From Candidatus Poribacteria bacterium (lineage in GTDB: Bacteria > Poribacteria > WGA-4E > GCA-2687025): DNA of 64,000 bases. A model generated the notes under the pieces. It saw only the letters and a list, made by a program, of their open reading frames with translations, searched no databases and had not been told where the DNA came from. The DNA is taken from the NCBI GenBank assembly GCA_963665845.2, contig OY762492.1, positions 2,528,001 through 2,592,000 on the forward strand. The letters run 5' to 3'. This document shows positions 11,039 through 31,774 of the stretch, piece after piece; the stretch's first letter is position 1; every line of letters starts with the position of its first letter. A program made the position numbers and the translations under genes.

Positions 11039-12121
11039 TCATTCGCCGTCTTGCGAAGTTGGGCTATTCGGGCTGCTGTCCGCTTTTTTCACCGCTCCCC
11101 ACTGCGCTTTTTTTTTACCGGCTGGATCGACGGAGAGGAAGCGGCTTTTGCCCGCTAAAACCCAGGACCCGAACACGGCGTTCACGCCTTCGGGCGTAAC
11201 GCGAACGATCTCCTTCGTATCCACATTCACCCGCACCACGCGAAAGCCAAATTGTACGTTGTCCGGATTCGTTCCATATAAGAGCCACTTGCTGTCCGGA
11301 GACCAAGCCGTGAGTTCTATCCACCCCTTGACCGGTGTGATCAGCTCTATATTGGAACCGTCCGGATTCATGATAGAAATGCCGCCAAAACCTAGAAGCG
11401 CGATCTTTTTGCTGTCCGGAGACCACACAGGGGAAATTTCAGACGAATCGGGGGTGTTGGTGATGTTTCTCAGACCCGTTCCGTCCGCGTTCATGATGAA
11501 AATGTCGCGTTTGTGAGTGTGGTGGAACGGCTCCTTCACGTTCGTAGAGAATGCGATTTTTCCGTCCGGAGACACGGTTACCTGACTTTCCGACTTGCCC
11601 GCCGTGTTCGTGAGGTTAACCATCTTGCCTGTGGTGATGGTCAGCATATAAATCTCTCTGTGCGGACCATGAGGCGGCAGGAAGGCTCCCCCGACCGCGC
11701 AAACCATCTGCCTGCCCCCGGGCATCCATTGGCTGCTAAGTATTTCGAATTCGCGCCAAAAGTCGAAGCCCATTGTCTGGATGATCCTCTTGTCCATGTT
11801 TATTTCTTCCCCGGTTCTGAGGTTCAGAACATATTTTCCATAGAACTTATCCGGAACGCCGCCGGCGACAGAGACGTATTTGCCGTCCATGCTCCATATC
11901 GGAAGTCCGTATTCTCCCTTCAGCCAGAGCCGGTTGTTTTGACCGTCCCAGTCGATCAGGTACACGCCTCCTTCGGCTGTATAAGAAATGGTCGGCTTTT
12001 CCAGCTTCGTCACATCTTCGAGCGGTTCAAGATCGTTTCCGACAGCGGCGGCGGAGAGCAGAGCGAACAGACCCGCCGCTATGAAAACGGCGCAGCGTTT
12101 TGAAAATTGAGCGGTTGTCAT
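11039..12121 (-). CDS. Secreted TolB-like/PD40 beta-propeller protein, copy 1, with C-terminal VDPxGK..WG.VK motif
   Basis: Signal peptide; WSPD/SPDG repeats; IFIMNADGTGLRNIT. Confidence 0.85.
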   Translation of the reverse strand: MTTAQFSKRCAVFIAAGLFALLSAAAVGNDLEPLEDVTKLEKPTISYTAEGGVYLIDWDGQNNRLWLKGEYGLPIWSMDGKYVSVAGGVPDKFYGKYVLNLRTGEEINMDKRIIQTMGFDFWREFEILSSQWMPGGRQMVCAVGGAFLPPHGPHREIYMLTITTGKMVNLTNTAGKSESQVTVSPDGKIAFSTNVKEPFHHTHKRDIFIMNADGTGLRNITNTPDSSEISPVWSPDSKKIALLGFGGISIMNPDGSNIELITPVKGWIELTAWSPDSKWLLYGTNPDNVQFGFRVVRVNVDTKEIVRVTPEGVNAVFGSWVLAGKSRFLSVDPAGKKKAQWGAVKKADSSPNSPTSQDGE

Positions 12122-12217
12122 GCCGAGCTCCTTTCTGGGAGAGGCGCCGCGGACGCGAATATCCCCGTATGAGCGTACTGCCCTGCGCCCTTCAGCCGCA
12201 AAATCCCCGCCGGCGCG

Positions 12218-13300
12218 TCAGTCGCCGTCTTGCGAAGTTGGACTATTCGGGCTGCTGTCCGCTTCTTTCAACGCTCCCCATTCCGCTTTTTTTTTACCCG
12301 CAGGGTCAACGGAGAGGAAGCGGCTCTTGCCCGCTAAAACCCAGGACCCGAACACGGCGTTCACGCCTTCGGGCGTAACGCGAACGATCTCCTTCGTATC
12401 CACATTCACCCGCACCACGCGAAAGCCAAATTGTACGTTGTCCGGATTCGTTCCATATAAGAGCCACTTGCTGTCCGGAGACCAAGCCGTGAGTTCTATC
12501 CACCCCTTGACCGGTGTGATCAGCTCTATATTGGAACCGTCCGGATTCATGATAGAAATGCCGCCAAAACCTAGAAGCGCGATCTTTTTGCCGTCCGGAG
12601 ACCACACAGGGGAAATTTCAGACGAATCGGGGGTGTTGGTGATGTTTCTCAGACCCGTTCCGTCCGCGTTCATGATGAAAATGTCGCGTTTGTGAGTGTG
12701 GTGGAACGGCTCCTTCACGTTCGTAGAGAATGCGATTTTTCCGTCAGGAGACACGGTTATCTGACTCTCTGATTTGCCCGCTGTATTCGTGATGTTGACC
12801 ATCTTGCCTGTGGTGATGGTCAGCATATAAATCTCTCTGTGCGGACCATGAGGCGGCAGGAAGGCTCCCCCGACCGCGCAAACCATCTGCCTGCCCCCGG
12901 GCATCCATTGGCTGCTAAGTATTTCGAATTCGCGCCAAAAGTCGAAGCCCATTGTCTGGATGATCCTCTTGTCCATGTTTATTTCTTCCCCGGTTCTGAG
13001 GTTCAGAACGTAATCGCCGTAGAACTTGTCCGGGACGCCGCCGGCGACAGAGACGTATTTGCCGTCCATGCTCCATATCGGAAGTCCGTATTCTCCCTTC
13101 AGCCAGAGCCGGTTGTTTTGACCGTCCCAGTCGATCAGGTACACGCCTCCTTCGGCTGTATAAGAAATGGTCGGCTTTTCCAGCTTCGTCACATCTTCGA
13201 GCGGTTCAAGATCGTTTCCGACAGCGGCGGCGGAGAGCAGGGCGAACAGACCCGCCGCTATGAAAACGGCGCAGCGTTTTGAAAATTGAGCGGTTGTCAT
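12218..13300 (-). CDS. Secreted TolB-like/PD40 beta-propeller protein, copy 2
   Basis: Nearly identical to 11039-12121 at a 1179-bp period. Confidence 0.85.
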   Translation of the reverse strand: MTTAQFSKRCAVFIAAGLFALLSAAAVGNDLEPLEDVTKLEKPTISYTAEGGVYLIDWDGQNNRLWLKGEYGLPIWSMDGKYVSVAGGVPDKFYGDYVLNLRTGEEINMDKRIIQTMGFDFWREFEILSSQWMPGGRQMVCAVGGAFLPPHGPHREIYMLTITTGKMVNITNTAGKSESQITVSPDGKIAFSTNVKEPFHHTHKRDIFIMNADGTGLRNITNTPDSSEISPVWSPDGKKIALLGFGGISIMNPDGSNIELITPVKGWIELTAWSPDSKWLLYGTNPDNVQFGFRVVRVNVDTKEIVRVTPEGVNAVFGSWVLAGKSRFLSVDPAGKKKAEWGALKEADSSPNSPTSQDGD

Positions 13301-13396
13301 GCCGAGCTCCTTTCTGGGAGAGGCGCCGCGGACGCGAATATCCCCGTATGAGCGTACTGCCCTGCGCCCTTCAGCCGCAAAATCCCCGCCGGCGCG

Positions 13397-14497
13397 TCAT
13401 TCGCCGTCTTGCGAAGTTGGGCTATTCGGGCTGCTGTCCGCTTTTTTCACCGCTCCCCACTGCGCTTTTTTTTTAACCGCTGGATCGACGGAGAGGAAGC
13501 GGCTTTTGCCCGCCATGACCCAGCGCGGGTCGCGCCCCCCATTGACCGTCAGCTGAACAACCTCCTTCGTTTTCACATCAACTCGAAAGACATTCCAAAC
13601 CTCATTTGGCTTCCATTCGCCTGAAAAGTACACAAGCCACCGCCCGTCCGGCGACCAGCAGGGGGCATGATCCCAGTTCGGGCTGGTTGTCATCTGCTCT
13701 ATGTTGGATCCGTCCGCATCCATCACGAAGACGTTGAGATCGGGAAATTCGGTGCCGATGTGCGCCGTGAAGGCGATCTGTTTCCCGTCCGGCGACCATG
13801 CAGCTATCTGGGCGTAATTGGTCGCTCTTTGATGGGGAGGACGGGTGAGGCGGGTCAAGCCGCTTCCGTCCGCGTTGATCGTAAAAATATCCCGCGCGCC
13901 GGTACCTGGATTAGAGTCGAACACTATTATGTCCGCCGTCGGCGACCACGAGGGGGTTTGGCTGATATCTCGCGGCGCTTTTGTCAGATTCGTCAGCCGC
14001 CCCGACGAAATATGCATCTTATAAATATCGGAGTGTGATTTGCCGATCCCCCCAGGCAGCACATAGCCTGAAAAAGCGAGCCAACGGCCGTCGCTAGACC
14101 AGGAGGGGGAGATGAGGCTGTATTCGCCATCGAAACGCTTTGTTATGTTTTCGGATCGATTCGTGGACAGATCAAGCACAAAAGTTGCGTAATTCCATGT
14201 TTCGCGGTCAAAGGCGACGATGGCGGCGCGCTTGCCGTCCGGCGACCACTCAACGCCCCCAGGAAAGCGCGTTCGCCCCCTCTTGTCTTTTATCCAGAGT
14301 CGGTCGTTCTGTCCGTCCCAGTCAATGAGCCGCAACTCGTAATCCAACATAGAATTGTAAACAATCGTTGGTTTGTTAAGCCGCAGAACATTCTCTTTGG
14401 GCTTTGGCAGCTGCGTCTCGGCAGACATCTCGCAGTAGAAGACTGACAACAGCGCGACTGCCAGAACGGCCGTCTTGAAAGCGGCAGCGATTCGCAT
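13397..14497 (-). CDS. Secreted TolB-like/PD40 beta-propeller protein, copy 3 (divergent body)
   Basis: GAAAGGAG RBS before ATG 14497, signal peptide, WSPDG repeats, tail almost the same as copy 1. Confidence 0.85.
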   Translation of the reverse strand: MRIAAAFKTAVLAVALLSVFYCEMSAETQLPKPKENVLRLNKPTIVYNSMLDYELRLIDWDGQNDRLWIKDKRGRTRFPGGVEWSPDGKRAAIVAFDRETWNYATFVLDLSTNRSENITKRFDGEYSLISPSWSSDGRWLAFSGYVLPGGIGKSHSDIYKMHISSGRLTNLTKAPRDISQTPSWSPTADIIVFDSNPGTGARDIFTINADGSGLTRLTRPPHQRATNYAQIAAWSPDGKQIAFTAHIGTEFPDLNVFVMDADGSNIEQMTTSPNWDHAPCWSPDGRWLVYFSGEWKPNEVWNVFRVDVKTKEVVQLTVNGGRDPRWVMAGKSRFLSVDPAVKKKAQWGAVKKADSSPNSPTSQDGE

Positions 14498-14511
14498 TGC
14501 CAACTCCTTTC

Positions 14512-15864
14512 TCAATCTTTTGGAAGAGGAACGCCGTCAGAGCGGGGTACTGCGTTATCGTCCAATGTAGGTTCGTGCATCATGTAGCTGGGCGAAGGAA
14601 TGCTGGGAACGATAGGATAGCGAGGCCCGTCAAGATCGTCTAGATGCGGCAGCTGTATCTGAGCTCCGTTGTCATCATTTTGATTGTCCCAGCCGCTGTG
14701 AAGGTTGGTATATCCTTGGACGGCATAATAACGCCCATCAGTAAGCGTCTTCATGTGCGGTACTGGGAATGAGAAACTCGTTTTGAATGCAATTCTGTCG
14801 GGAATTGCGCGATCATACGTCACGCCAAAATTATTCCAGACCGCGCCCGGCGCATCAAACTTTTCGTACCAGGAGGCTCGTCCGCGCATCTCTGTAAGGA
14901 TTTTTCCTGGACGGTCGTTGTAGTACCAGACCGTGTGAGAAGTGACAAAAGTGTAATTGTCGCCGCTAGTCTGAGCAATGGAATCCAGCGACAGATCGAC
15001 ATACCACCAAAGAAGCCCAAGATCCTCATAGACGCGGACATCGCGCGTCCAGGAATCGGAGCTTGCGTCGCGCGGCATATCGTTCTCCTTGATGTTTCCC
15101 CATATTATGGGGACGTTTGCCTCTTCCGATGCAGGATCATTGAGAAAAACGGTCGCGCTGATCGTATGTATTTTGCCGCCGTCTTTGGGCGACCCGTCGC
15201 CCGACACAAATCGATGAGGAACGCGGCTCTCTGTTCCTCCGCTGGTATCCTCATCAATCAGCTCTTTCCCGTCATACCATCGGACCGTATGAAACGGAAT
15301 GTTTGTGGTGAGCGTCAGGTCAAATTCTTCACCTACCGCGAAGCTGGACTGAAACGGCATCGATTGGATCCGTATCGGTTTCCAGACGGTGATGGTTTTT
15401 TCGGCGGCATCCTCATTTCCGTTAGCATCCTTGACGACCGCTCTGACGGCGACGAGGTTTCCGTCTGTTGAGCCCATGTTGTCGTACGCGTAACTGAACA
15501 CGCTTGTTCTGGCTGTGTTGTTGTCTGTCCACTCATGACTGCCGGCTGTCCATGTGACGCTGACAAAGTCCACATTGGTGTCGATTCGCATGGAGTGCGA
15601 TTCCCCTTCGATGGCGTCGGATGTGCAGTGGTAGGGGCCGATAGAGGCGATCTCAATCGGCGGCGGCGGCAGAACTGGCGGAGCTGGCGGAGCTGGCGCA
15701 GCAGCGTTGGCTGGCGCGCCGACGAAGAAAGCGGATGTTGCCGCAGCGAGGAAGACCAAAGCGGCTTTCACCAGCCGACTGACGCGGGGAAGGGACACAG
15801 CGGACGAGTCATGACGGTCGGTTCGTCCAAGAAGCGCGGACATGAGGTTTCGTATGCGTTTCAC
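14512..15864 (-). CDS. Hypothetical exported protein with Pro-rich linker and beta-rich (Ig/PKD-like) repeats
   Basis: Hydrophobic segment plus APAPPAPPVLPPPP; internal similarity IDTNVDFVSVTW / LTTNIPFHTVRW. Confidence 0.65.
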   Translation of the reverse strand: MKRIRNLMSALLGRTDRHDSSAVSLPRVSRLVKAALVFLAAATSAFFVGAPANAAAPAPPAPPVLPPPPIEIASIGPYHCTSDAIEGESHSMRIDTNVDFVSVTWTAGSHEWTDNNTARTSVFSYAYDNMGSTDGNLVAVRAVVKDANGNEDAAEKTITVWKPIRIQSMPFQSSFAVGEEFDLTLTTNIPFHTVRWYDGKELIDEDTSGGTESRVPHRFVSGDGSPKDGGKIHTISATVFLNDPASEEANVPIIWGNIKENDMPRDASSDSWTRDVRVYEDLGLLWWYVDLSLDSIAQTSGDNYTFVTSHTVWYYNDRPGKILTEMRGRASWYEKFDAPGAVWNNFGVTYDRAIPDRIAFKTSFSFPVPHMKTLTDGRYYAVQGYTNLHSGWDNQNDDNGAQIQLPHLDDLDGPRYPIVPSIPSPSYMMHEPTLDDNAVPRSDGVPLPKD

Positions 15865-15931
15865 TTGATCGTTTCTAGACGGTTCATGCCGCCTGCATAC
15901 ACCTTACCATAAGTCGTTCGCCCGTGTTGCC

Positions 15932-16099
15932 GCCTTTTTGCCGATGCGCCAAAAAACGAACGCGCCGCCGCGTCAATCAGCCCCGCGTTGCGCGGTCCGA
16001 GTATCGCAACTTTTTTCATTAGCGCCCTTTCCATGTTGATGCGGTCGCGTCGGCTGCAACGGCACTATAACAGAAAAGGCGGGGCGGGGGAACTGGCGC
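15932..16099. repeat. Chimeric junction: copy of 18831-18878 fused to copy of 10799-10927
   Basis: Direct sequence identity to both loci, overlapping at TCAATC. Confidence 0.92.
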
Positions 16100-16277
16100 A
16101 AATCGGTTTATTCCGATGAAATTCTTTTGGACACGGGCGACTCGTTGCGCTATTATATACGTGTGAAACGACTAATTGCGCTGGAACTCGAGAAGCCGGT
16201 GATCCCGACAACTGGAGACTCAGCGGAATGCCAAACCGACAGCCCGTCCTTTTGGACGGAAACAGAAAGGAAAGCTG

Positions 16278-16757
16278 ATGGGACAGAAGGATTTCTACGA
16301 AGACCCTGTGGTTGATCTTCGCTGGCGCGAAGGGAAGGAGAGACTGATCGCTGCTGCTAAAGCGCTGCAGAAAGCGGCGGGCAGCATGTTTGCTCATGAC
16401 ATGCGTTGCGCACGGGAAGGCAAATTCTCGGTCTACGCATATAACAGGAAGGCATACGAAAAAACATGCCCCGAAGAGTTCGCTGAGTTCCTAGCGGCGT
16501 GCAAGGAAGAGGCTCCTGAGCTGGCTCACTACTACTCAGATGAGTTCCGCCAGCACTGGCGGAACAAGGCAAAGATTCGGAGCACGGATGCGGAACTGCG
16601 AGAGCAGAGCGTGGACGAGCCGGCATGGCAACTCTCTCTCGTCCTTGACGATGATCGTTTCTGGTACAAGCTTTACATCGAGGCGTGCAGGGATCGAGAC
16701 GAGGAAGCGTATCAGGAATGGTTTCAGCGCAACTGGTTACGTAATCTCCGCCCATAG
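16278..16757 (+). CDS. Hypothetical protein
   Basis: 159-aa ORF with GAAAGGA RBS; no recognised motif. Confidence 0.6.
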   Translation: MGQKDFYEDPVVDLRWREGKERLIAAAKALQKAAGSMFAHDMRCAREGKFSVYAYNRKAYEKTCPEEFAEFLAACKEEAPELAHYYSDEFRQHWRNKAKIRSTDAELREQSVDEPAWQLSLVLDDDRFWYKLYIEACRDRDEEAYQEWFQRNWLRNLRP

Positions 16758-16815
16758 AAATCAGAGACGCCTGATGGCATTGACCTTCTGAAAAGCAAGG
16801 GGTAATAGGATCGGC

Positions 16816-16849
16816 GCGCCCCGCTGGATCGCGCGTTACAGCGGGGTGC
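16816..16849. terminator. GC hairpin between convergent genes
   Basis: gcgccccgctg...cagcggggtgc; no clear U-tract. Confidence 0.3.
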
Positions 16850-16855
16850 AGACGC

Positions 16856-18283
16856 TCATTTCCGCGAAGATTCAAGCCGGGAGAGCAGATACTCTTGCGA
16901 GCGGTCGCCTTTGACCGAATTGCACGCCGCGCACAGCAGTTGCAGGTTCTCGTAGTGGTCGGAGCCGCCCTTGCTGCGCGGTACTTTATGATCGATGGTG
17001 AAATTCCTAAACGGAAACATGAATTTACAACCGCCGCAGCGACCCTCCTGCTCGCCGAACAGACGATGCTTATGCGTCCGATAATTCGGCAGCGCCCCCT
17101 GATCCGTCCGCTGCGGTATGTCCGTCCGGTGTATAAGTGGATGCTGCGAAAACAGCAGCGGGTTGTCCTGCTCTATGCGCGTCTTCACCAGCTCCGCCGC
17201 CTTCGCCGACAGGTCGATGCCCGCCCATTGACGACTCAGACGCTCCGCGGCGACGCACGCTGTCGCGCAACCGCAGAACGGATCAAGAACGAGGTCGCCC
17301 GCGTTGGACGACGCCCGAATGATGCGGTCTAGCAGCACCAACGGCTTCTGCGTCGGATATCCAACTTTCTCCTTTGATCTGGATTTCAAAGCCCCTATGT
17401 CGGCAATGATGTCCTGCGCAGCCATGCCCTTCATCTCATCAAGATACTGTTTAAAGCTGGGTACGGAGCCTCTCGGCGGCCAATAGATCCTGCCAATTTC
17501 ATCCAGGTACTCCAACGCTTCGATGGTCGATTCAGGAACATTCTCCGCCCCTGGAAAATTGCGTGGAATTGCCCAATGCCGCCCTTTTGAAGTGGGATCA
17601 TGACCGCGCCATGGTTGACCAGATTCGCCGTCTCGCGTTCCTGCGCCGGTCAGATCTCCCGTCTTGTACTTTCGTCCGTTGGCGTCTTCGCGTCGAAAAT
17701 TGTTTTTAATGTAGTCCTGATCATAAGGCTGATAAACGCGATTCCATCGGTATTTTTTGGATTTGGAATAAAACAGCAGAACATCATGAATGGGTCCAAA
17801 TCGGCGCGCTCCAGAATGCGCGCTGGTTCGTTTCCAAACAATTTCATTTCGAAAATTGTCCCGCCCAAAGACAGCGTCCATGATCAGTTTCAGATAATGG
17901 CTCGCCGTCGGGTCGCAGTGGAGATAGAGGCTGCCTGTGTCTTTCAGGATGCGCTTCATCTCGATCAGGCGAACCGCCATCATGATCGTGTAGGACTTCA
18001 TGCCGGATCCGTGCGCCGCGCCTGCCGCGTCGATGACGGCATACAAGGCAGGTTCGCGGTCGGCGATCTCGCCGTGCCATGCGAGGTCAATGTCGTCCAG
18101 CGTCCATGTATCTTTGAACGCGGCGCCTGCCGCTTCCGAGCCAACAGGCGCCGAGTATGTCCTGTTGGAGTTGAACGGCGGGTCTAGGTAGATCAGATCG
18201 ACGCAGTCGGAGTTCATGCCGCGCATGATGTCCAGGTTGTCGGCCGTCCACATGGTACGGTTGGCGAAGTTGGCGACGGTCAT
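16856..18283 (-). CDS. N6-A/N4-C DNA methyltransferase fused to C-terminal HNH endonuclease (paralog A)
   Basis: DLIYLDPPF (motif IV), GYPTQKP, VLDPFCGCAT (motif I), then CGGC..DHKVPRSKGG..NLQLLCAACN. Confidence 0.92.
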   Translation of the reverse strand: MTVANFANRTMWTADNLDIMRGMNSDCVDLIYLDPPFNSNRTYSAPVGSEAAGAAFKDTWTLDDIDLAWHGEIADREPALYAVIDAAGAAHGSGMKSYTIMMAVRLIEMKRILKDTGSLYLHCDPTASHYLKLIMDAVFGRDNFRNEIVWKRTSAHSGARRFGPIHDVLLFYSKSKKYRWNRVYQPYDQDYIKNNFRREDANGRKYKTGDLTGAGTRDGESGQPWRGHDPTSKGRHWAIPRNFPGAENVPESTIEALEYLDEIGRIYWPPRGSVPSFKQYLDEMKGMAAQDIIADIGALKSRSKEKVGYPTQKPLVLLDRIIRASSNAGDLVLDPFCGCATACVAAERLSRQWAGIDLSAKAAELVKTRIEQDNPLLFSQHPLIHRTDIPQRTDQGALPNYRTHKHRLFGEQEGRCGGCKFMFPFRNFTIDHKVPRSKGGSDHYENLQLLCAACNSVKGDRSQEYLLSRLESSRK

Positions 18284-18284
18284 T

Positions 18285-23241: not shown

Positions 23242-25707
23242 ATGGTTGGAGTCAACATCGGCGTCGGCGACCGCATCGTCGCCGCAGTCGCGCAGGAACC
23301 TTTTGTGAGCGGCGGAAACGATTTTTGCCGCCTGATACCGATATGCACGATGGAAGGGATACCGCTTTCCGCGGAGGAGTTTCCGAATAAGGGGCTTGTT
23401 TGGTGGCGCATCATGGAGTCGGACCGAGACCATGCGGTGCCGAAAAACCTTGTGTTAGTGGAGCTGGAGGAGGCGCCGGCGTATAGCGCGGTCGATCAGA
23501 ACAAAGATTTTTATCAGGCGCGTTCGATCTCGCGCTTGAAAGGCGTCAACGAAATCATCCGCGTCGATCAATACCGGCAGACGGCGGAATTGATACGGGC
23601 GGGCGTCGTGAGACTTCGCCGCCTCGTCCACGGCGCGGTCTATTTCTTGACAGGCGACGAGGTGAGCGGTCCATGGCGCGTCTCCCTGCGCGACGAATCG
23701 AGCGACCCGTATGTGTATGACGTCCAAGCGCTGCAGCAGGAGCGGGTCTGGAACTGGAACTGGAACGAATTCGTCTCGCTTGTGGACGTCATTCCGCGCG
23801 AGGTGCGGTTTGAAACGGACCGCCGATGGGGCGACTACGAGCTGGAGTCCTACACGCTTGTTTTTTACGACCATCTGAAAACCGCCTTTGAAAAGGCGGT
23901 CAACCTAGAAGCGTTGAGCGACCGCGACATCGTCTCTAGGGTCGCGCGCGCCTCGGTGACGCATGCCGAACGGAGAGAGCTGGAGCGGTTCTTTGAGAAC
24001 GCGCTGAAGGATATTGAGGAAGGCGATCTGGCGCGTTACCGCCCGCGCATAGAGACCTATCTGGCGCGCGTTCGCGGTTTTGAGCAGGAGCTGCGCCCGC
24101 TGTACGACTCCATTTTGACGCAGGAGCATATGAAAGCGGCGCTGGAGAAACGGCAGAGCGAACTCGCCGAAGAGTATGTGCGTCAGCGGACGGGCGAGCT
24201 GGAAGAGAAGGCGCGTCAGGAGATCGACGCGCTGCTGGCGGAGCGGGACGAGACGGCGCAGAAAATTGAGGCGTCCCGCGACGCTTTTGAGGAAGAGCGG
24301 CGGCGTCAGGAGGCGGAGCTGGAGAAGGAGCGGCGCAAGCATGAGCTGGAGATGGCGCGCAAACATGAGGCAGAGACGGCGCGGAGCCGCGAAACGATCG
24401 CCGCGCTGGAGAAAGCGGCTGACAACTTCAAGGAGAAGCGGGAAGAAATTCTTCAAAACATGATGAGTTTTCTGCCGTTGATTCAGGAGATGGGCGTCCC
24501 GTCGATTGCCGGCGCGCCGTCTGTGGCCGCTGTTCATCACCAGGAGCGCGCCCCGAAACGCTCCGTCTTCGAATTTCCGCCTTATGTGCTGGAAGGCGCG
24601 CCCGACAACCCGATGGAAGAGTCGCTCTTCATCGACACATGGCTGCAGAATGTGCGTGATTCCGGCTTCTCGTACGCCGATTCTGACCTGCTCAACTATC
24701 ATATTGCGATGAAGTCGGAGCGGTTCAACATACTGGCGGGACCGAGCGGCGTCGGCAAGTCGACCCTGCCGCGCCTATACAGCCTCGCGCTGCACGGGTA
24801 TGCCGGGTCGCAGTCGCCCGATCGATATCTGATGGTGCCGGTGCGCCCTGGATGGATGGACATGCGCGACCTTCTCGGATATTTCAACAGCCTTGAAGGC
24901 GTCTTTGAGCCGGCCCCGGCGCGCCTGTTTGAAACGCTCGTGTTCGCCTGCGAGGAGGAGCGGATGGGGCATTCCGGCGTCTATGTGATCAATCTGGACG
25001 AGATCAATCTGTCCTATGTTGAGCATTACTTTGCCGACTTTTTGAGCGCGCTTCAAAATCCGGAGGGGGCGCAGGGCGTCCGCTGCTTCAACCCCGACCT
25101 GTGCGCGGAGGGCGACCCGCTGCGTCCGTACGGCTACCTTTCCATCGCGCGCAGCGTGCGTTTCACCGGGACGGCGAATGTGGACGAAACGACCAAGCCG
25201 TTCAGCCCGCGCATGCTGGACCGGGTCAATGTGATCGAGATACAGCCGCCGGCAACGCCGATCTTCGCGGGGCAGGAGGCGGCGGCTCTCGGCTCCTCTT
25301 ATTTAGAACGAAAAAACGCCGCGCCCATTTCCGCCTCCGTGTACCGCAGCTGGACGAGAACGCGCCCGTCAGAAGAAACCATCAGCTTTGTGCGCCGTTC
25401 GATAGACCCGATTCAGAAGATACTTTACCAGTACGGATACCCGCTCAGCATGCGCGCCTTGAGCGGCATCGCGCGGTATGTGGCGAACAGCGCCAATCTG
25501 ATCTCGGAGCGGGAGGCGTTCGACCGGCAGATACTCCAGCGCGCCCTGCCGAAACTGCGCGGGCATACCGACCGGTTCCGACAGCTGCTGCAGGAGCTGC
25601 TGGGCGAGTTGCCGGAGGAGCTGTTCCCGCGCTCCCACAAGCGGCTGTCGCGCATGGTGGAGTCGGAATACGCGATGGACTTTTTCCACTGCATACAGGA
25701 AGCGTAA
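23242..25707 (+). CDS. McrB-family AAA+ NTPase with long coiled coil
   Basis: GPSGVGKS Walker A, VRPGW, INLDEINL Walker B, GTANVDETT (NxD), MLDR; E/R-rich coiled coil around aa 250-400. Confidence 0.88.
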   Translation: MVGVNIGVGDRIVAAVAQEPFVSGGNDFCRLIPICTMEGIPLSAEEFPNKGLVWWRIMESDRDHAVPKNLVLVELEEAPAYSAVDQNKDFYQARSISRLKGVNEIIRVDQYRQTAELIRAGVVRLRRLVHGAVYFLTGDEVSGPWRVSLRDESSDPYVYDVQALQQERVWNWNWNEFVSLVDVIPREVRFETDRRWGDYELESYTLVFYDHLKTAFEKAVNLEALSDRDIVSRVARASVTHAERRELERFFENALKDIEEGDLARYRPRIETYLARVRGFEQELRPLYDSILTQEHMKAALEKRQSELAEEYVRQRTGELEEKARQEIDALLAERDETAQKIEASRDAFEEERRRQEAELEKERRKHELEMARKHEAETARSRETIAALEKAADNFKEKREEILQNMMSFLPLIQEMGVPSIAGAPSVAAVHHQERAPKRSVFEFPPYVLEGAPDNPMEESLFIDTWLQNVRDSGFSYADSDLLNYHIAMKSERFNILAGPSGVGKSTLPRLYSLALHGYAGSQSPDRYLMVPVRPGWMDMRDLLGYFNSLEGVFEPAPARLFETLVFACEEERMGHSGVYVINLDEINLSYVEHYFADFLSALQNPEGAQGVRCFNPDLCAEGDPLRPYGYLSIARSVRFTGTANVDETTKPFSPRMLDRVNVIEIQPPATPIFAGQEAAALGSSYLERKNAAPISASVYRSWTRTRPSEETISFVRRSIDPIQKILYQYGYPLSMRALSGIARYVANSANLISEREAFDRQILQRALPKLRGHTDRFRQLLQELLGELPEELFPRSHKRLSRMVESEYAMDFFHCIQEA

Positions 25708-25709
25708 TC

Positions 25710-27542
25710 ATGGCGGAGGAACTGCTGCTTTACGTCGAGTCGGACGAGACGCCGTATCCGGGCGGGATGCCGCTCCGCTTTCCGTTTGAAAACGGCGCGA
25801 CCCGCCAGGCGCCGCACCCTGTTTATGAGCTGGACGACATCGAGGCGGTGGCGACGAACCCTGACCCTGGATCGCGTTACACGCTGCGGATCGGCGGCAT
25901 TGAGCATCCGCCGTCCTCGCTGTTGTCGGGGGGTCTGCGCTGGGGCGGTCAAAAGCTTCTCGCCAACTTTCGCGGCTGGGTTTCGGTACAGATCGCGCGC
26001 ATCGGCCCGGGCGGCGAAAGCTCCATGGTCATCGAGATCCTGTGCCGTCCGTCGAAGATCACTGAAGACCAGTACGAGGCGATGGTCATGGAGATTGAGG
26101 CGGCGTCCAAAGGTCTCATCCTGGATGTGATGGGCGCGCGGGCGGGCTTCGGCTGGAGCCAGCAAAATATGGCGACGCGGTTTCGCCATACCGAGGAGCA
26201 TGCCGAAATCGGAAACGCCCTAAACAGAATACGCGCCGAACTGGGCGGACTACAAAGCGGAGCGGCGCTGCAGTTAAAGGTGGACAGGGAGCGGGTCCAA
26301 AAATGGAGCTACAACGGACTTGACCACCGCTCGCTGAACGATCTGATCTCGACCGGCGTCGATCCGCGCGACCCGTCCAGCCGCCCCTTTTTATGCAGCG
26401 CTCCAGTCCGTTCCTTGACGGCGCAGACGCATGAGAACCAGCAGATCGGGCGGTTCTTGATGTGGCTGCGGCAGCGGCTTGGGTTCATCGCGCAGATGAT
26501 GGAGGCGCAGATGGCGCTGATCGATGAGGATCGCTGGTGGAAAGACCTGCCGCGTCCGGACGGGCCCTCCATCTGGGAGACGGAGGATGAGCCGCGCCGA
26601 CGCCGCCTTGAGCAGATTATTGAATCATGCAATGAGCATCGCCGCTCCATCTGGCGCGACATGCGCGAATACCCGTTTCTGCAGGCGGACGCCAAGCCGA
26701 TGGATCTGCGCCCGACAGCGCTGTTTCTGCGCCATCCTGTTTATTCGACGATCTACCGCGTCATGCTCTCGTTCATGCGGCAGCATGGGAACATCTTCGA
26801 CCGCGCCAATTTTGAGATGCAGGCGCGCGTCAAAGGCACCGACAAGCTGTACGAATATTGGACATATCTCAACATGCTGCGGTATTTGACGGAGCGGGGT
26901 CGGTTGAAAGTGGAGGAATACGGGTCGCTGTATGAGCGCTCGTCGCAGATTGGCGCCTACACGCTGCATATTGAGCGCTCGTCGGCGCTGTTTCGGCTGG
27001 ATGACACGCGGACGCTGCGCCTCTTATACACGCCGCTCATTTATCAACGGGAGGAGGCGGCGCGGCGCAGTCTCCCCTTCTACAAAGCCGGCGGCGGACT
27101 GCCGTATAGCCCCGACTTCATGATCGAGGTGCGCGAGGAGGGGCGGCTGAAGATGGGCGTCATTCTGGACGCGAAGTATATGCGCGATGTGTCCCGCGAA
27201 ATGGACGACCTGCGCAAATACTTGACCGCGATCCGCGACGCCGAAACGGGAGAGCCGTTCGCCCGTTCGCTCTGGCTGCTGTATGTTGGGAGCGAGGAGG
27301 CGGTCGGTCCGCCGTGCCGCGCCGAGATTCATACGAATCGCGCCGCGTTCATCCCGAACGACGCGGACTATGTGGAGACGCGCGGAGACGACTCGGTCGT
27401 CATTGGCGCGATGCGTTTTGCGCCGCGTCCGTGGGAGGGGCCGGACAGTTCGCTTGACCAGCTGGACGCGCTGTTCCGTCCGCTGCTGGAGAGCCTGGGC
27501 GTCTCATTCAGCCCAGAGTTTGAGGCTGCCGCTGTCGGGTAG
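25710..27542 (+). CDS. McrC-like DUF2357 + PD-(D/E)XK nuclease
   Basis: PSKI...YEAM, THENQ, HPVY, KLYEYW, PDF...ILDAKY; ATG 2 nt after the NTPase stop. Confidence 0.85.
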   Translation: MAEELLLYVESDETPYPGGMPLRFPFENGATRQAPHPVYELDDIEAVATNPDPGSRYTLRIGGIEHPPSSLLSGGLRWGGQKLLANFRGWVSVQIARIGPGGESSMVIEILCRPSKITEDQYEAMVMEIEAASKGLILDVMGARAGFGWSQQNMATRFRHTEEHAEIGNALNRIRAELGGLQSGAALQLKVDRERVQKWSYNGLDHRSLNDLISTGVDPRDPSSRPFLCSAPVRSLTAQTHENQQIGRFLMWLRQRLGFIAQMMEAQMALIDEDRWWKDLPRPDGPSIWETEDEPRRRRLEQIIESCNEHRRSIWRDMREYPFLQADAKPMDLRPTALFLRHPVYSTIYRVMLSFMRQHGNIFDRANFEMQARVKGTDKLYEYWTYLNMLRYLTERGRLKVEEYGSLYERSSQIGAYTLHIERSSALFRLDDTRTLRLLYTPLIYQREEAARRSLPFYKAGGGLPYSPDFMIEVREEGRLKMGVILDAKYMRDVSREMDDLRKYLTAIRDAETGEPFARSLWLLYVGSEEAVGPPCRAEIHTNRAAFIPNDADYVETRGDDSVVIGAMRFAPRPWEGPDSSLDQLDALFRPLLESLGVSFSPEFEAAAVG

Positions 27543-27629
27543 GCCATGTCCGTATAGTCCGTCCCGCGCATGAGGGGGTTTTCTAGACTCCCCCTTGAAA
27601 AGGCGTTTACGGGCGCGGCGTCCGATTCC

Positions 27630-27798
27630 CTGACCTCATGCTTAAAGTTGGGACATTTGAACCAACGATCGCTCTATTCATGGGAAAAAGGCGCCGCCAA
27701 CCAGACCGTCATTCCCGCGCAAGCGGGAATCCAGAGGCATCCTAGAAACCGTCCGCGTCCGCCCGCCCGACATGTCTCAACTTAAGACGTAAGGTCAG
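27630..27798. mobile_element. MITE-like element family A
   Basis: ~27-bp imperfect TIRs ctgacctcatgcttaaagttgggacat / atgtctcaacttaagacgtaaggtcag. Confidence 0.75.
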
Positions 27799-27808
27799 CA
27801 ACGCGCGA

Positions 27809-27838
27809 TTGCCCAATCCAGCAGGCTGGGTGTATAAT
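27809..27838 (+). promoter_or_regulatory. Putative sigma70 promoter
   Basis: TTGCCC-18 bp-TATAAT upstream of 27871. Confidence 0.5.
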
Positions 27839-27870
27839 AAAAGAACGTTTTTCTATGAAGGAGCGAGACG

Positions 27871-28674
27871 ATGAAACGATTTGGATTGTGCATAGCGGTC
27901 GCGCTGGCAATGGCGGCGTTGACGCCGGCGATGGCGCAGGATCAAGAGTACACTGTTCGGTATGCGTCCGATTTTCCGGACGATCCAGCCTCCGAGGCGA
28001 TTGTGTGGTCGCTTGTCGACTTTGTCGAGTTGGACAAGGGCGATTTTACGGAGCATGGCGGCGGTACACACAACGGAAACGACGATGCCAGCGGGCGATT
28101 TCTGTTTCTCTGGAACGAAGAGGGCCTCTTTTTCATGTCAGAGATTACAGACGATTCGCACTTGAACGCCAACGCAGGGGCCGGCATCTGGAACGGCGAC
28201 AGTACCCAGATCGCCATTGAGCCGACAGGCGATCGTCCGGGAGGCGGAGGCGGCGTCATGTACGAGTACAACTTCGGACTCGGCGCGCCCGATTCCGCGA
28301 CGCCCAGCTTCGCGCGCGCCCTTCGGCATGCCGATGGACCTGGGGCGTTCGACCCAGATCTGTTCGTGTACAAATTCGAGCGGATAGAGGAGCTGAAGCT
28401 GACCAAGTATCTGGTCTTCTTTCCTGCCAGCGAGATCGTCCCCGCCGAGCTGGAGGCAGATTCAACGATCGGACTGGGACTCATTGTGAACGACGGCGAC
28501 GACGAACCTGGACAAGCTGGACAGAAAGGATGGCTCGGATGGGGCGCCAACTCCATCGTCTTTGGAAAAGACGCGAGCCAGACCAACCTGCTCATACTTT
28601 CGGAGGAAGACCTCAGCGTTGATCCTGCCGGCAAGCTGGCAGCGTCCTGGGCGGACATCAAAACGAGCCGATAA
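27871..28674 (+). CDS. Secreted CBM9/DOMON-like sugar-binding protein with C-terminal VDPAGK..WA.IK motif
   Basis: Signal peptide AMA|QD; LWNEEGLF..EITDD, WNGDS.QI, GL.VNDGD...GW.GW. Confidence 0.78.
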   Translation: MKRFGLCIAVALAMAALTPAMAQDQEYTVRYASDFPDDPASEAIVWSLVDFVELDKGDFTEHGGGTHNGNDDASGRFLFLWNEEGLFFMSEITDDSHLNANAGAGIWNGDSTQIAIEPTGDRPGGGGGVMYEYNFGLGAPDSATPSFARALRHADGPGAFDPDLFVYKFERIEELKLTKYLVFFPASEIVPAELEADSTIGLGLIVNDGDDEPGQAGQKGWLGWGANSIVFGKDASQTNLLILSEEDLSVDPAGKLAASWADIKTSR

Positions 28675-28830
28675 ACAACGGAGGAACGCTGCAAGAAACA
28701 AACAGCGCCGCGTCATGCTTGAATGCGCATGCCGCGGCGCTGGATCGGCGGGCCGCCGCGCAAAATGAACGTCATCGAATTGAGCAGTCTAGGCGTATCA
28801 CATAGGAGAATGTTTTCTATGAAGGGCGAG

Positions 28831-29627
28831 ATGAAACGATCTGGATTGCGCATAGCGGCGGCGATGTCGATGGCGGCGTTCATGACAGCGGCGACGGCGC
28901 AGGATCAAGAGTACATTGTTCGGTATGCGCCAGAGGCGGCGCTTCCTGACGATCCTGCCTCCCTGTGGTCGATTGTCGATTTTGTCGAGTTGGACAAGGA
29001 CGATTTTACGGCGGCGGCATACACAACGGAAACGAGGACGCCAGCGGACGATTTCTGCTTCTTTGGAACGAAGAAGGCATCATCCTGATGATCGAAGTGA
29101 CAGACGATTCGCACCTGAACAACAACACTGGAGACGACATCTGGGTTGGCGACAGCGTCCAGGCCGCCATTGAACCGACAGGCGAGCGTCCGCCGGGCGG
29201 AGACGGCGTCATGTACGAATTCAACTTTGGACTCGGCGCTCCCAATTCCTCGACGCCCAGTTTCGCGCGCGAACTGCGGCATTTCAAAGGACCTGCAGAG
29301 TTCCACCCTGAAACAGTTTTTTACGAATTCGAGCGGGTGGAGAAGCATAAGCTGACCAAGTATCTGGTCTTCTTTCCTGCCAAACAGATCGCGCCCGCCG
29401 AGATGAAGGCGGATACAACGATGGGGCTGGGACTCATCGTGAACGACGGCGACGACGAACCTGGACAAGACGGACAAAAAGGATGGCTCGGATGGGGCGC
29501 CAACTCCATCGTCTTTGGAAAAGACGCGAGCCAAACCAACCTGCTCATACTTTCGCAAGCCGCCCTAAGCGTCGATCCAGCCGGCAAGCTGGCAGCGTCC
29601 TGGGCGGACATCAAAACAAGCCGATAA
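28831..29627 (+). pseudogene. Frameshifted paralog of the CBM9-like protein
   Basis: N-terminus in frame of ORF 28723, remainder in frame of ORF 28965; 7 nt (ggagcat) missing near 29009 relative to 27871-28674. Confidence 0.8.
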
Positions 29628-29663
29628 ACAACGGCGCAACACTACAAGAAAGGATCGGATCAT

Positions 29664-30449
29664 ATGAAACGAACAGCGATGGCGGCGGCATGCGCATTTG
29701 CGCTTGCCGGAGCGGCATTTGCCCAAGACCAGGAGTACTCCGCCTACCACACAGGCGGCTCCGCGCCGACAATCGACGCCAACTTGAACGACTGGAGCGG
29801 CGTCCCTGAAGGCGTCGCGCTCGCCGACTTTAGGGAGCATGGCGGCGGCAAATGGAACGGCGAAGACGACGCCAGCGGAACCTTCTGGCTCCTCTGGAAC
29901 GAAAACGGACTCTACTTCGCCGCGGACATCACGGACGACTCGCATCTGAACACAGGCGTCGGCGGCGGCATCTGGAACGGCGACGGAGCGCAGGTCGCCA
30001 TCGACCCGACGGGAGAACGCGCCGGCGGAGGCAATATGTACGAGTTCAACTTCGGTCTCGGCGGCCCCAACTCCGACAGCCCGCAATTCAGCCGGGCGCT
30101 CAAATTTGCGACGGGACCTGCGGAGGTGGGCGTCACGGCGGACGATTACGCGATTGCGCGCATCGAAGGGGAAAAACGGACGCTCTATGAAGCGTTCTTC
30201 CCGGCGGCTGCGATTCCGCCCACGGCTCTAGAAGCGGGCGGCTCCATCGGCTTCGGAATGATTGTGAACGACGGGGACGATGAGCCTGGTCAACAAGGGC
30301 AGAAAGGGTGGCTCGGATGGGGCGCGAACGCGATCGTCTTCGGCAAAGACACCGCGCAGATGAATGTCGTCAACTTCGTCGGAACGCCCGCGTCGGTTGA
30401 TCCGTCGGGCAAGATGGCGTCCTCATGGGGAACGCTCAAAACCCGCTAA
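29664..30449 (+). CDS. Secreted CBM9/DOMON-like sugar-binding protein with C-terminal VDPSGK..WG.LK motif
   Basis: Signal peptide AFA|QD; APTIDANLNDW, LWNENGLYFAADITDD. Confidence 0.8.
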   Translation: MKRTAMAAACAFALAGAAFAQDQEYSAYHTGGSAPTIDANLNDWSGVPEGVALADFREHGGGKWNGEDDASGTFWLLWNENGLYFAADITDDSHLNTGVGGGIWNGDGAQVAIDPTGERAGGGNMYEFNFGLGGPNSDSPQFSRALKFATGPAEVGVTADDYAIARIEGEKRTLYEAFFPAAAIPPTALEAGGSIGFGMIVNDGDDEPGQQGQKGWLGWGANAIVFGKDTAQMNVVNFVGTPASVDPSGKMASSWGTLKTR

Positions 30450-30574
30450 GATTCCCGTTTTCACGGGAATGACGAGAGGTGAACGGAAGATTCCCGTTTT
30501 CACGGGAATGACGAAAAGGTGAACGGAAGATTCCCGTTTTCACGGGAATGACGAAAAGGTGAACGGGAATGACG
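30449..30574. repeat. Tandem array of 39-40 bp units carrying ATTCCCGTTTTCACGGGAAT
   Basis: Palindromes at 30451, 30490, 30530 with near-identical linkers. Confidence 0.92.
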
Positions 30575-30611
30575 AAAAGGGCGGTACCCATCATGGGTAC
30601 CGCCCTTTTTT
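30575..30611. terminator. Bidirectional intrinsic terminator
   Basis: AAAAGGGCGGTACCCA-TCA-TGGGTACCGCCCTTTTTT between convergent genes. Confidence 0.85.
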
Positions 30612-30784
30612 ATGGAGGCTCCGCGTCCGATTCCCCCTTGAAAAGGGGGCTAGGGGGGTTTAAAGAACGGGCGCGGCGGCTGCGATGCCTTTTTATAAAG
30701 GCGCCGCAGAAGACGTCTGCGTTCGCATGCCGACATATCCCAACTTAAGACGCGAGGTCAGATTTTATGGAGGAGCCGTTCCGC

Positions 30785-31774
30785 CTATCTCTTTAAGCCC
30801 GCCCAGACGACAGGCAACTTCCCTCCGCTTGCGACATTCATCGGCGGCTCTTCCGGGTCGTCGCCTTCGAAGGTTGTCGGCGGGGCGTAGGCGAAGGTGT
30901 GCATGAAATGGTTGCCCTGTATGTCCAGAATCTGAGCCACTAGGCTGTTGTCCCCGGCGAGCCAGGCGGTTCGGGTCTGGATCACCGCCGCGTCGCGCGC
31001 GCCCTGAATGGTCGTGTCCCAGCCGACGACGCCCACATCGGAGAGCCGCATCAGGTGCGCTTGATGCAGCCCGATGTCGGAGCCGGCGTTGATGGTGAAC
31101 TGCGCATACTTCTTGCCGTCCAGTTTGACGCCTTTCATATCAACCCCGAACACATCCGGCACATCGTTGATGCGGTGAACGTCGTTGAAGTAATGATGCT
31201 TGTCGAGCCAGCGGCATTCAAAATCGTTGAATTCGTCGTCGCCGGCGCCCATGATCGCCTTCGGATTTGTCAGGTCATGGTAGAGGCCGAACGCGTGGCC
31301 GAGTTCGTGGGCGGTGAGGGAGACATGATCGGGGCAATTGCTATGCTCGGCGATCAGCGCCGTCCCGCCGTTTGCCCAGCCGAAGATGGGAAAGCCTGTC
31401 CCGCAGGGCCAGCCCTCCACAAATTCGGCGCCGGCGAGAAAGATCGCATAGACGTTGTTCTGGTTGCGGAACCGCTGCGGCAGCTCCTGCTCAATCTTGT
31501 TGTAGGTGTCGTGCAGGTAATGGTTGAGCGCATGCTTGCCGCGGAGGATGTGGATCGCCGGGTCGAGGCGGAAGGTTTTCTCGCCGAAGCCGTGCCGATC
31601 CATTTCGGACTGGTACAGCTCCTGCGCGCCTTCGATGAGCCGTTTCACCTTCGCGGTGTTTTCCGCCACATTGGTCGGCTTGAAATAGATCGCCTTGACC
31701 TGAAACGGCAGCTGGGCGGAAGCGCCGGCGGTCGTCAGCAGGGCGGACGCCATCAGAACGAGCAGTTTTTTCAA
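30785..31774 (-). CDS. Secreted metzincin-type zinc metallopeptidase with C-terminal VASGGK..WA.LK motif
   Basis: Signal peptide ASA|Q; HELGHAFGLYH followed by Met-turn AIMG. Confidence 0.82.
   Translation of the reverse strand: MKKLLVLMASALLTTAGASAQLPFQVKAIYFKPTNVAENTAKVKRLIEGAQELYQSEMDRHGFGEKTFRLDPAIHILRGKHALNHYLHDTYNKIEQELPQRFRNQNNVYAIFLAGAEFVEGWPCGTGFPIFGWANGGTALIAEHSNCPDHVSLTAHELGHAFGLYHDLTNPKAIMGAGDDEFNDFECRWLDKHHYFNDVHRINDVPDVFGVDMKGVKLDGKKYAQFTINAGSDIGLHQAHLMRLSDVGVVGWDTTIQGARDAAVIQTRTAWLAGDNSLVAQILDIQGNHFMHTFAYAPPTTFEGDDPEEPPMNVASGGKLPVVWAGLKR

What the first reader, a model, noticed from the sequence alone, without database searches (positions are those of the whole stretch)
11039..31774. 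Shared C-terminal tag on seven secreted proteins from three unrelated families: candidate protein-sorting or secretion signal
Seen: tails VDPAGK-KKAQ-WGAVK (~11083-11135), VDPAGK-KKAE-WGALK (~12262-12314), VDPAVK-KKAQ-WGAVK (~13441-13493), VDPAGK-LAAS-WADIK (~28612-28674 and ~29565-29627), VDPSGK-MASS-WGTLK (~30390-30449) and VASGGK-LPVV-WAGLK (~30785-30840). The spacing V-x4-K-x4-W-(G/A)-x-(L/I/V)-K is the same in all seven. Carriers are beta-propellers, CBM9-like proteins and a metzincin peptidase, all with N-terminal signal peptides. I saw it on none of the cytoplasmic enzymes here. It has no TM helix, so it is unlike LPXTG or PEP-CTERM, and it is far shorter than a T9SS CTD. Inference: a short amphipathic signal for outer-membrane export, surface attachment or compartment targeting, read by machinery not in this window. 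I recall similar tails in Poribacteria proteins but know no characterised mechanism.
Basis: partly seen in the sequence, partly recalled or inferred. Interest (0 to 1): 0.88.

Follow-up and report, generated by a model that had tools for sequence, protein, structure and literature searches.

The report
Stripped-down surface-address tag of Poribacteria
About 120 small proteins of this Poribacteria genome that are predicted to be exported, seven of them in this window, end in the same 17-residue tag; it matches no family model searched here and likely works as a stripped-down address label for the cell's type IX-like secretion and surface-attachment machinery.

Summary
The seven tails are real. 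The genome is Poribacteria. It has 118 strong copies of a 17-residue tag, [LT]-S-V-[DENS]-P-x-G-K-x4-W-[GA]-x-[LIV]-K, all within 26 residues of a stop; shuffles give none. Carriers span 23 sequence clusters, have no membrane helix, and 114 of 120 have a predicted signal peptide. The tag is unfolded in a model and has no Pfam or NCBIfam model. It occurred in 61 of 61 phylum genomes.

In 30 of those 61, the tag also sits directly before a type IX (T9SS) C-terminal domain. Its start fits the PorU cleavage consensus. A shorter cousin in FCB bacteria takes the CTD's place behind the same Fn3-like domain. SprA-, PorV- and PorU-like genes co-occur.

Best reading (about 0.5): a CTD-less T9SS-linked sorting and processing signal. 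No GldM, GldN or PorZ was found, and a type II secretion operon is a live rival.

Corrections: the seven tails come from three families, and one carrier is frameshifted. This scan has found the tag and its cousin before on other DNA.

The parts
11039..12121 (-). PD40/TolB-like beta-propeller protein, 360 aa, predicted signal peptide; tagged
11087..11137 (-). 17-aa tag LSVDPAGKKKAQWGAVK, then a 15-aa acidic extension
12218..13300 (-). Tandem duplicate of the same propeller gene (97.5% DNA identity); tagged
12266..12316 (-). 17-aa tag LSVDPAGKKKAEWGALK, then a 15-aa acidic extension
13397..14515 (-). Third propeller paralogue (likely start at the ATG near 14497); tagged
13445..13495 (-). 17-aa tag LSVDPAVKKKAQWGAVK, then a 15-aa acidic extension
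27871..28674 (+). CBM9-like protein, 267 aa, predicted signal peptide; tagged
   Evidence: PF06452 over cut-off
28612..28662 (+). 17-aa tag LSVDPAGKLAASWADIK, then TSR-stop
28831..29627 (+). CBM9-like paralogue broken by a 7-bp deletion near 29009; signal peptide and tag lie in different frames
29565..29615 (+). 17-aa tag LSVDPAGKLAASWADIK, then TSR-stop (in the broken gene)
29664..30449 (+). CBM9-like protein, 261 aa; its model has a folded body and an unstructured tail
30390..30440 (+). 17-aa tag ASVDPSGKMASSWGTLK, then TR-stop
30785..31774 (-). Metzincin-type peptidase (HELGHAFGLYH in the sequence), 329 aa, predicted signal peptide; tagged
   Evidence: PF13582 just over cut-off
30791..30841 (-). 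Divergent 17-aa tag MNVASGGKLPVVWAGLK, then R-stop; lowest of the 118 strong hits (30.9 bits)

Best explanation
The 17-residue tail is a portable tag on small proteins predicted to be Sec-exported, and it likely acts as a CTD-less sorting and processing signal for Poribacteria's type IX-like system (SprA translocon, PorV-family shuttles, PorU-like sortases).

Shown by calls: the tag is terminal, portable, phylum-wide, unfolded in a model, and occupies the passenger/CTD junction.

Inferred steps: (1) Sec exports the protein to the periplasm. (2) The W-[GA]-x-[LIV]-K half, probably a short helix when bound, is recognised by one of the 10-25 PorV-family barrels per genome, in place of the Ig-like CTD. 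(3) A PorU-like C25 enzyme cuts at (L/T)|S-V and links or releases the lectin-like passenger at the cell surface.

My odds: a protein-read address tag about 0.9; reader in the SprA/PorV/PorU system about 0.5; actual cleavage at the S-V site about 0.4.
For: Position in cis: the full tag lies directly before N[FY]PNP of a CTD at 39 places in 30 of 61 phylum genomes (4 of 14 genera); the reversed-pattern control gave 0. I translated 34 of the 39, mostly WD40 or FG-GAP/ASPIC passengers. In this genome, a 1459-aa subtilase (C1:2751708-2755970) has a tag-like VKPAGDQDLLTQWGKVK right before its CTD. W[GAS]x[ILVT][KR] lies shortly upstream of PNP in 16 of 60 CTD-like proteins (two paralogue groups and two singletons), against 70 of 33,953 background windows.

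Cleavage-site fit: the PorU consensus is X/(GSA)(VLI), for example T/SIAD and D/SVED (PMC4560394, passages). 109 of 118 tags and 17 of 22 families fit it at their start; the background dipeptide rate is 5.5%.

Domain swap: in 5 of 5 Ignavibacteria/Calditrichia genomes one small Fn3-like protein ends in the cousin tag. In 9 of 11 fetched paralogue loci the same domain is followed directly by a CTD, three of them through a T-S-V-[KD] junction (16 of 36 matches were fetched). In this genome one passenger domain (77-82% identity) occurs both with the tag and on 1504- and 1604-aa CTD proteins, and a 60% identical LamG paralogue with a lipobox lacks the tag.

Machinery here: SprA-like 2198 aa (TIGR04189 181.8 bits, cut-off 200), two PorU-like proteins (NF033707 320 bits, cut-off 420), five PorV_fam proteins over cut-off. 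Across 40 tag- or cousin-bearing genomes: SprA_N 38 of 40 and C25 40 of 40, with 0 of 14 controls. PorV_fam 29 of 29. GspD over cut-off in 13 of 14 Poribacteria but 0 of 26 cousin-bearing genomes.

Protein-level selection: between families, shared residues use the same codon at the rate expected from codon usage (0.333 against 0.339).
Against: No reader is shown. A tag in cis with a CTD means the tag is not simply an alternative export signal; it may be the processing or targeting part only.

The cousin was never found before a CTD: 0 of 26 genomes and 0 of 121 in the Krumholzibacteriia genome's phylum. The cis form is concentrated in two genera.

The shortest known T9SS signals are 40-55 aa beta-strand units (PMC11969387, passages), unlike this Pro/Gly-rich peptide. 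Several homologues keep only the W-x-x-L-K half and lose S-V. Leu is the commonest residue before the proposed cut, whereas the P. gingivalis sites that I saw have T, D, E, N or S there.

The system is atypical. GldM and GldN were not found in 5 genomes, though no control rang either. Full-length PorZ was found in only 1 of 5 genomes, not Poribacteria. SprA and PorU score below their equivalog cut-offs.

Co-occurrence is confounded by shared ancestry. A type II secretion operon is present, and 39 of 40 genomes have some secretin-domain match.
Confidence: 0.5

Rival explanations
1. The tag is a non-covalent docking peptide (dockerin-like in role, not in sequence). It would bind a scaffold or carrier in the periplasm or on the surface and gather many small lectin-like modules, with export by another route or by hitch-hiking on a CTD-bearing protein.
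For: Invariant V, K, W and K in an otherwise unfolded tail. It is kept in cis beside a CTD, as an attachment module would be. W-half remnants persist without S-V. A lipidated paralogue lacks it. The single-copy Fn3-tag protein of Ignavibacteria looks more like an adaptor than a cargo.
Against: It does not by itself explain the fit to the PorU site at the tag's start (109 of 118) or the CTD-for-tag swap behind one domain. The tag did not pack on the CTD in the cis model (residues 38-68 pLDDT under 50), although that model rests on 34 sequences. No scaffold was identified.
Confidence: 0.27
2. The tag is a recognition signal for the type II secretion system, which would export the small folded carriers while the T9SS-like system handles large CTD cargo.
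For: A T2SS operon at C1:2726181-2737814 with GspD and GspG over cut-off. GspD over cut-off in 13 of 14 Poribacteria. Size split in this genome: carriers at most 464 aa, CTD-like proteins median 889 aa.
Against: GspD is over cut-off in 0 of 26 cousin-bearing genomes. It does not explain the tag in front of CTDs. Linear T2SS signals are not established (recalled). An earlier scan note reports the tail on giant proteins in another genome (e1-6824143, not checked here).
Confidence: 0.1
3. The tag is an amphipathic peptide that binds outer-membrane lipid or LPS directly, with no protein reader.
For: Hydrophobic residues at i, i+4, i+7 (L/A, W, L) followed by basic residues in non-propeller carriers. 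No TM helix.
Against: Near-invariant S-V-x-P-x-G-K identities and fixed spacing exceed what lipid binding needs. The 42 propeller carriers have K-K at those positions and an acidic extension (mean net charge -3.5).
Confidence: 0.07
4. The tag is a functionless remnant of CTD truncation or of recent DNA copying.
For: It does sit at the pre-CTD junction, and some copies are decaying.
Against: It is conserved across 61 of 61 genomes and 14 genera and on 23 clusters. Synonymous sites are randomised between families. The tag columns are invariant within one family whose members are 33-70% identical to the window protein.
Confidence: 0.02

Closest known systems
T9SS type A C-terminal domain (TIGR04183, PF18962, FlgD_ig-like PF13860) with its PorU cleavage site
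   Same: C-terminal, on Sec-exported unrelated passengers, portable. The tag's start fits X/(GSA)(VLI). The tag occupies the junction before such CTDs. The same genome has 62 CTD-like proteins.
   Different: 17 aa against about 70-100 aa. No Ig beta-sandwich and no terminal beta-strand motifs. Unfolded in models. No terminal carrier also has a CTD.
Short CTDs of Prevotella intermedia (PMC11969387; abstract, introduction and passages seen)
   Same: Shows that T9SS signals can shrink and still be cleaved and glycosylated, and are predicted to bind PorV.
   Different: Those are 40-55 aa three-stranded units that keep motifs B, D and E. The tag is a third of that length and does not show them.
Type B CTD / PorP-SprF shuttle pairs (PMC12618676; abstract and outline seen)
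   Same: Precedent for a second signal class read by dedicated barrel shuttles, and for separable secretion and targeting signals. Several PorV-like genes here directly follow CTD genes.
   Different: Type B CTDs are folded domains. No barrel gene travels with the tagged genes, and the PorP family model matched only below cut-off.
PEP-CTERM, GlyGly-CTERM and LPXTG sorting signals (features recalled)
   Same: Short portable C-terminal tag on many unrelated exported proteins.
   Different: No transmembrane helix (0 of 120; highest mean hydropathy of a tag 0.72) and no NCBIfam match.
Poribacterial TIGR04183 proteins (Kamke 2014, PMC3909097; passages seen)
   Same: Same phylum; reports CTD-like domains and calls the secretion route unresolved.
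   Different: That paper found no Por structural genes, and the passages I saw do not mention a short tag. SprA-, PorV- and PorU-like genes are found here.

Membership tests
T9SS type A CTD | Match to TIGR04183, PF18962 or PF13860 | tested here: not met
   0 of 33 tag sequences match; the seven window carriers do not match
T9SS type A CTD | Folded Ig-like beta-sandwich of 40 aa or more at the C-terminus | tested here: not met
   Tail is coil, pLDDT under 50 from residue 249 of 261
T9SS type A CTD | N-terminal Sec signal peptide on the carrier | tested here: met
   114 of 120 by my own heuristic, not SignalP; background 575 of 2148
T9SS type A CTD | Cleavage-site motif X/(GSA)(VLI) in a flexible linker | tested here: met
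   109 of 118 tags, 17 of 22 families; sequence fit only
T9SS type A CTD | Cleavage and C-terminal conjugation by PorU | not testable with these tools
   Needs proteomics
T9SS type A CTD | Binding to a PorV shuttle | not tested
Canonical T9SS (host machinery) | SprA/Sov translocon | tested here: inconclusive
   2198-aa protein, PF14349 over cut-off, TIGR04189 E 1.3e-53 but 181.8 bits against cut-off 200; one match in 14 of 14 Poribacteria
Canonical T9SS (host machinery) | PorV-family shuttle | tested here: met
   Five over the NF033709 cut-off; none over the PorV equivalog NF033710
Canonical T9SS (host machinery) | PorU sortase (C25 with CTD) | tested here: inconclusive
   Two C25 proteins with CTD and a His-Gly motif, NF033707 320 bits against cut-off 420; catalytic Cys not located
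Canonical T9SS (host machinery) | GldM/PorM motor and GldN/PorN ring | tested here: inconclusive
   None over cut-off in 5 genomes, but no control genome rang; GldK and GldL not searched
Canonical T9SS (host machinery) | PorZ | tested here: not met
   Only partial matches in 3 Poribacteria genomes (CTD part only in this one); full-length in Rosettibacter
PEP-CTERM / GlyGly-CTERM / LPXTG | Motif, then transmembrane helix, then basic cluster | tested here: not met
   0 of 120 carriers have a TM helix beyond residue 45; no model match
Type II secretion cargo | GspD/GspG system in the genome | tested here: met
Type II secretion cargo | Export depends on GspD | not testable with these tools
   Needs genetics

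The most novel reading that the evidence does not exclude
A third class of type IX signal: a 10-17-residue peptide, with no folded CTD, that is enough for export through SprA and for sortase processing. It would be read by a dedicated PorV-family shuttle in a motor-less, PorZ-less version of the system shared by Poribacteria, Krumholzibacteria, Eisenbacteria and their kin, and expanded from one ancestral Fn3-tag protein (still single-copy in cultured Ignavibacteria) to about a hundred lectin-like proteins per genome.
Probability: 0.33. Interest if true: 0.87.

Novelty: new variant of a known kind. Interest (0 to 1): 0.72.

Why it matters
The tag marks about 4% of called genes in this genome (120 of 3133) and tens to about a hundred proteins in nearly every Poribacteria genome searched (range 10-116). 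It gives a direct handle on the exported lectin-like repertoire of a dominant uncultured sponge symbiont whose secretion route was called unresolved (PMC3909097). If the T9SS reading holds, it breaks the rule that T9SS cargo needs a folded CTD and offers a very small secretion and display tag. It also extends a T9SS-like system well beyond Bacteroidota. The single-copy cousin in cultured Melioribacter roseus and Rosettibacter primus makes the question testable at the bench.

Tried and rejected
Database identity: no NCBIfam or Pfam model for 33 tag sequences (two unrelated weak Pfam hits, E 0.11 and 0.2), and no PDB sequence match.

Literature: searches listed no paper describing the tag. I saw listings and abstract openings only, apart from passages of PMC3909097, PMC11969387, PMC4560394 and PMC11285876 and the abstract of PMC12618676. 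Subscription papers are not covered; a Poribacteria pangenome paper that I recall (Podell 2019) did not appear and was not read. No supplements were read, and supplementary domain tables could bear on the novelty claim.

Complex prediction of the tag with the conserved stand-alone PorV-like protein (C1:3740912-3741817) was not available, so binding is untested.

Cis packing of the tag on the CTD: not seen in the model. Foldseek on that model returned FlgD, PorZ and PorU as expected for the CTD part.

The top multi-stretch hits of the 1.84-billion-protein search (P0045, P0046, P0048, P0103) are false positives: internal repeats with different spacing. The other 146 of 150 listed hits are terminal.

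The PorV tree was discarded because several loci gave the wrong ORF; only its BLAST result (a 35-41% identical orthogroup) was used.

Linkage to machinery: one carrier lies about 1 kb from sprA, but with 75 carrier loci that is within chance.

Atlas search of the single-copy cousin protein gave only unnamed Ignavibacteriota clusters and a weak lead (0.82, PF18962 in 11% of members). No orthologue of that protein was found in this genome.

Expression: one RNA run has a contig of a relative over 29517-30274; contigs do not show transcription.
Full report
Observation. The seven tails are in the sequence at the stated places with the stated spacing. They belong to three PD40/TolB-like propellers, three CBM9-like proteins and one metzincin-type peptidase. 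They are fewer independent events than seven: two propellers are a 97.5% identical tandem duplicate, and two CBM9-like genes have identical tags. One CBM9-like gene (28831-29627) carries a 7-bp deletion that separates its signal peptide from its tag. Contigs from three runs of one study agree with the assembly there.

Genome-wide test. The window lies in a 3.98-Mb genome. Homologues of its proteins are named Candidatus Poribacteria. A strict regex found 99 matches in 76,112 six-frame ORFs, all within 26 aa of a stop. An iterated PSSM converged on 118 hits of 30 bits or more, all terminal, with an empty gap from 18 to 30 bits and no shuffled hit at 12 bits or more. With two weaker hits, the 120 carriers fall into 23 single-linkage clusters once the tail is removed. 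Some singletons are fragments or distant members of larger families, so there are fewer folds than clusters. Pfam on 21 carrier ORFs gave LamG, 3-keto-disaccharide-hydrolase-like, CBM4/9, CBM9, NPCBM, SnoaL-like, PKD, AhpC/TSA and DUF4960 matches; 8 of the 21 had none. My own signal-peptide heuristic (not SignalP) called 114 of 120 carriers, against 575 of 2148 other soluble ORFs; 0 of 120 have an internal TM helix. Between families, shared tag residues use the same codon no more often than codon usage predicts (0.333 against 0.339), so the tag is kept at the protein level. An AlphaFold2 model of the 261-aa CBM9-like carrier (pTM 0.78) has a folded body and a coil tail with pLDDT under 50 from residue 249, although V245, K250, W255 and K259 are invariant in its 40-sequence alignment.

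Distribution. A search of 1.84 billion representatives gave 194 hits at E 0.001 or less; 146 of the 150 listed are terminal and four are false positives. A shorter cousin, whose core I recalled from memory and then tested, ends about 1200 stored stretches in the GTDB collection by the tool's estimate. The 80 titles shown of 125 loci include Krumholzibacteria, Eisenbacteria, Latescibacterota, Zixibacteria, Calditrichia, Marinimicrobia, Ignavibacteria, Gemmatimonadota, Rhodothermales and Bacteroidia, one Lentisphaeria label and many unnamed bacteria. Positions that the pattern did not fix show a [VTL]-[PSA]-[VT]-E-like start, weaker than but parallel to [LT]-S-V-[DE]. Of 26 such genomes, 15 hold 7-41 copies, 10 hold one and one was missed by the second pattern. 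That the cousin is the same signal is an inference. It is helped by two proteins in this genome whose ends resemble it: TTTWGGVKTLY-stop and TQWGKVKALESF before a CTD.

Link to type IX secretion. First, the full tag occurs directly before the N[FY]PNP start of a CTD at 39 places in 30 of 61 genomes, in 4 of 14 genera, and the reversed control gave 0. The 34 that I translated are mostly WD40 and FG-GAP/ASPIC proteins. In this genome a subtilase has the same layout with a two-residue insertion, and 16 of 60 CTD-like proteins keep the W half before PNP. Second, the tag's start fits the published PorU consensus X/(GSA)(VLI) (PMC4560394) in 109 of 118 copies and 17 of 22 families, against a 5.5% background. 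Third, signals swap behind one domain. An Fn3-like domain ends in the cousin tag in a single-copy protein in 5 of 5 Ignavibacteria/Calditrichia genomes, and is followed directly by a CTD in 9 of 11 fetched paralogue loci. In this genome one passenger domain occurs with the tag and with CTDs, and a lipoprotein paralogue lacks the tag. Fourth, the machinery is present: an SprA-like 2198-aa protein, two PorU-like C25 proteins with CTDs and 12-13 PorV-family matches. Kamke 2014 had reported no Por structural genes in single-cell genomes (PMC3909097). SprA_N and C25 occur in 38 and 40 of 40 tag- or cousin-bearing genomes and in 0 of 14 controls.

Results against that reading. The cis arrangement shows that tag and CTD can coexist, so the tag need not be the export signal. 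It was not found for the cousin (0 of 26 and 0 of 121 genomes). The tag did not pack on the CTD in a model. Known minimal T9SS signals are 40-55 aa beta units (PMC11969387). Half-tags without S-V exist. GldM, GldN and full-length PorZ were not found in Poribacteria, the first two without a positive control, and SprA and PorU fall below their equivalog cut-offs. All carrier lineages are related, so co-occurrence is weak evidence. A T2SS operon is present here, and GspD is over cut-off in 13 of 14 Poribacteria but in 0 of 26 cousin-bearing genomes; 39 of 40 have some secretin match.

Mechanism. Shown: a terminal, portable, unfolded, phylum-wide tag that occupies the passenger/CTD junction. Inferred: Sec export, recognition of the W-[GA]-x-[LIV]-K half by a PorV-family shuttle, passage through SprA, and cleavage or transpeptidation at (L/T)|S-V by a PorU-like enzyme. 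I put this at about 0.5, a docking peptide at 0.27, a T2SS signal at 0.1, a lipid-binding anchor at 0.07 and a relic at 0.02. Specialised shuttles and separable secretion and targeting signals have precedent in Flavobacterium (PMC12618676, abstract).

Membership and novelty. The tag is not a T9SS CTD: model match and fold were tested and not met. It is not PEP-CTERM- or LPXTG-like, because it has no TM helix. It most likely works like the processing and targeting part of a T9SS signal. The paper searches listed no description of it, within a library that lacks most subscription journals. Earlier unchecked notes of this scan report the same tag in at least eight other windows and the cousin in at least six. 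They agree in outline and are not counted as support. I rate it a new variant of a known kind, interest 0.72.

Noticed in passing
window 28831-29627 (+): CBM9-like tagged gene broken by a 7-bp deletion near 29009; contigs of three runs agree, so it is probably a real pseudogene.
   Followed up: yes
window 11039-13396 (-): Recent 1179-bp tandem duplication of a propeller gene, 97.5% identical; part of a 42-member propeller family with acidic extensions after the tag.
   Followed up: partly
window 30450-30780: Intergenic high-copy repeat with a palindromic core; contig depth in the thousands against about 25 for the flanks.
   Followed up: no
window 14512-15864 (-): 450-aa protein with a hydrophobic N-terminal stretch next to the propellers; no Pfam or NCBIfam match and no tag.
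   Followed up: no
G000 C1:2940672-2942888 (-), L207: PorV-family barrel fused to an FtsN/RlpA-like (SPOR-type) C-terminal domain, which could tether a shuttle to peptidoglycan.
   Followed up: no
G000 C1:935094-941690, 1293086-1299277, 1858861-1865773: SprA-like translocon, two PorU-like sortases and a PorU-PorV gene pair in a phylum reported to lack Por structural genes; no GldM, GldN or PorZ found.
   Followed up: partly
G000 C1:3638941, 829876, 2324636, 1864781: Four PorV-like genes lie just downstream of giant proteins with atypical CTDs, which suggests dedicated cargo-shuttle pairs.
   Followed up: no
L107, L104 and 18 similar loci: Conserved single-copy protein of about 140 aa (signal peptide, Fn3-like domain, cousin tag), often upstream of a maf-like gene (name recalled from sequence) in Ignavibacteria including cultured species. 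A second single-copy family ends the same way in Zixibacteria (L057, L061, L106).
   Followed up: partly
G000 C1:3047083 (-), 270 aa: LamG lipoprotein 60% identical to a tagged LamG protein but without the tag.
   Followed up: partly
G000 C1:1396774-1397878, L046: The tag-bearing C-terminal end of a gene is duplicated as a stand-alone fragment of about 60 codons just upstream.
   Followed up: no
window 61813 to the end (+): An 821-aa ORF starting here ends, beyond the window, in a CTD-like domain.
   Followed up: no
window 16856-18283 (-): Methyltransferase-like protein with a C-terminal HNH-like motif (read from the sequence, not scanned); similar genes recur elsewhere in the genome.
   Followed up: no
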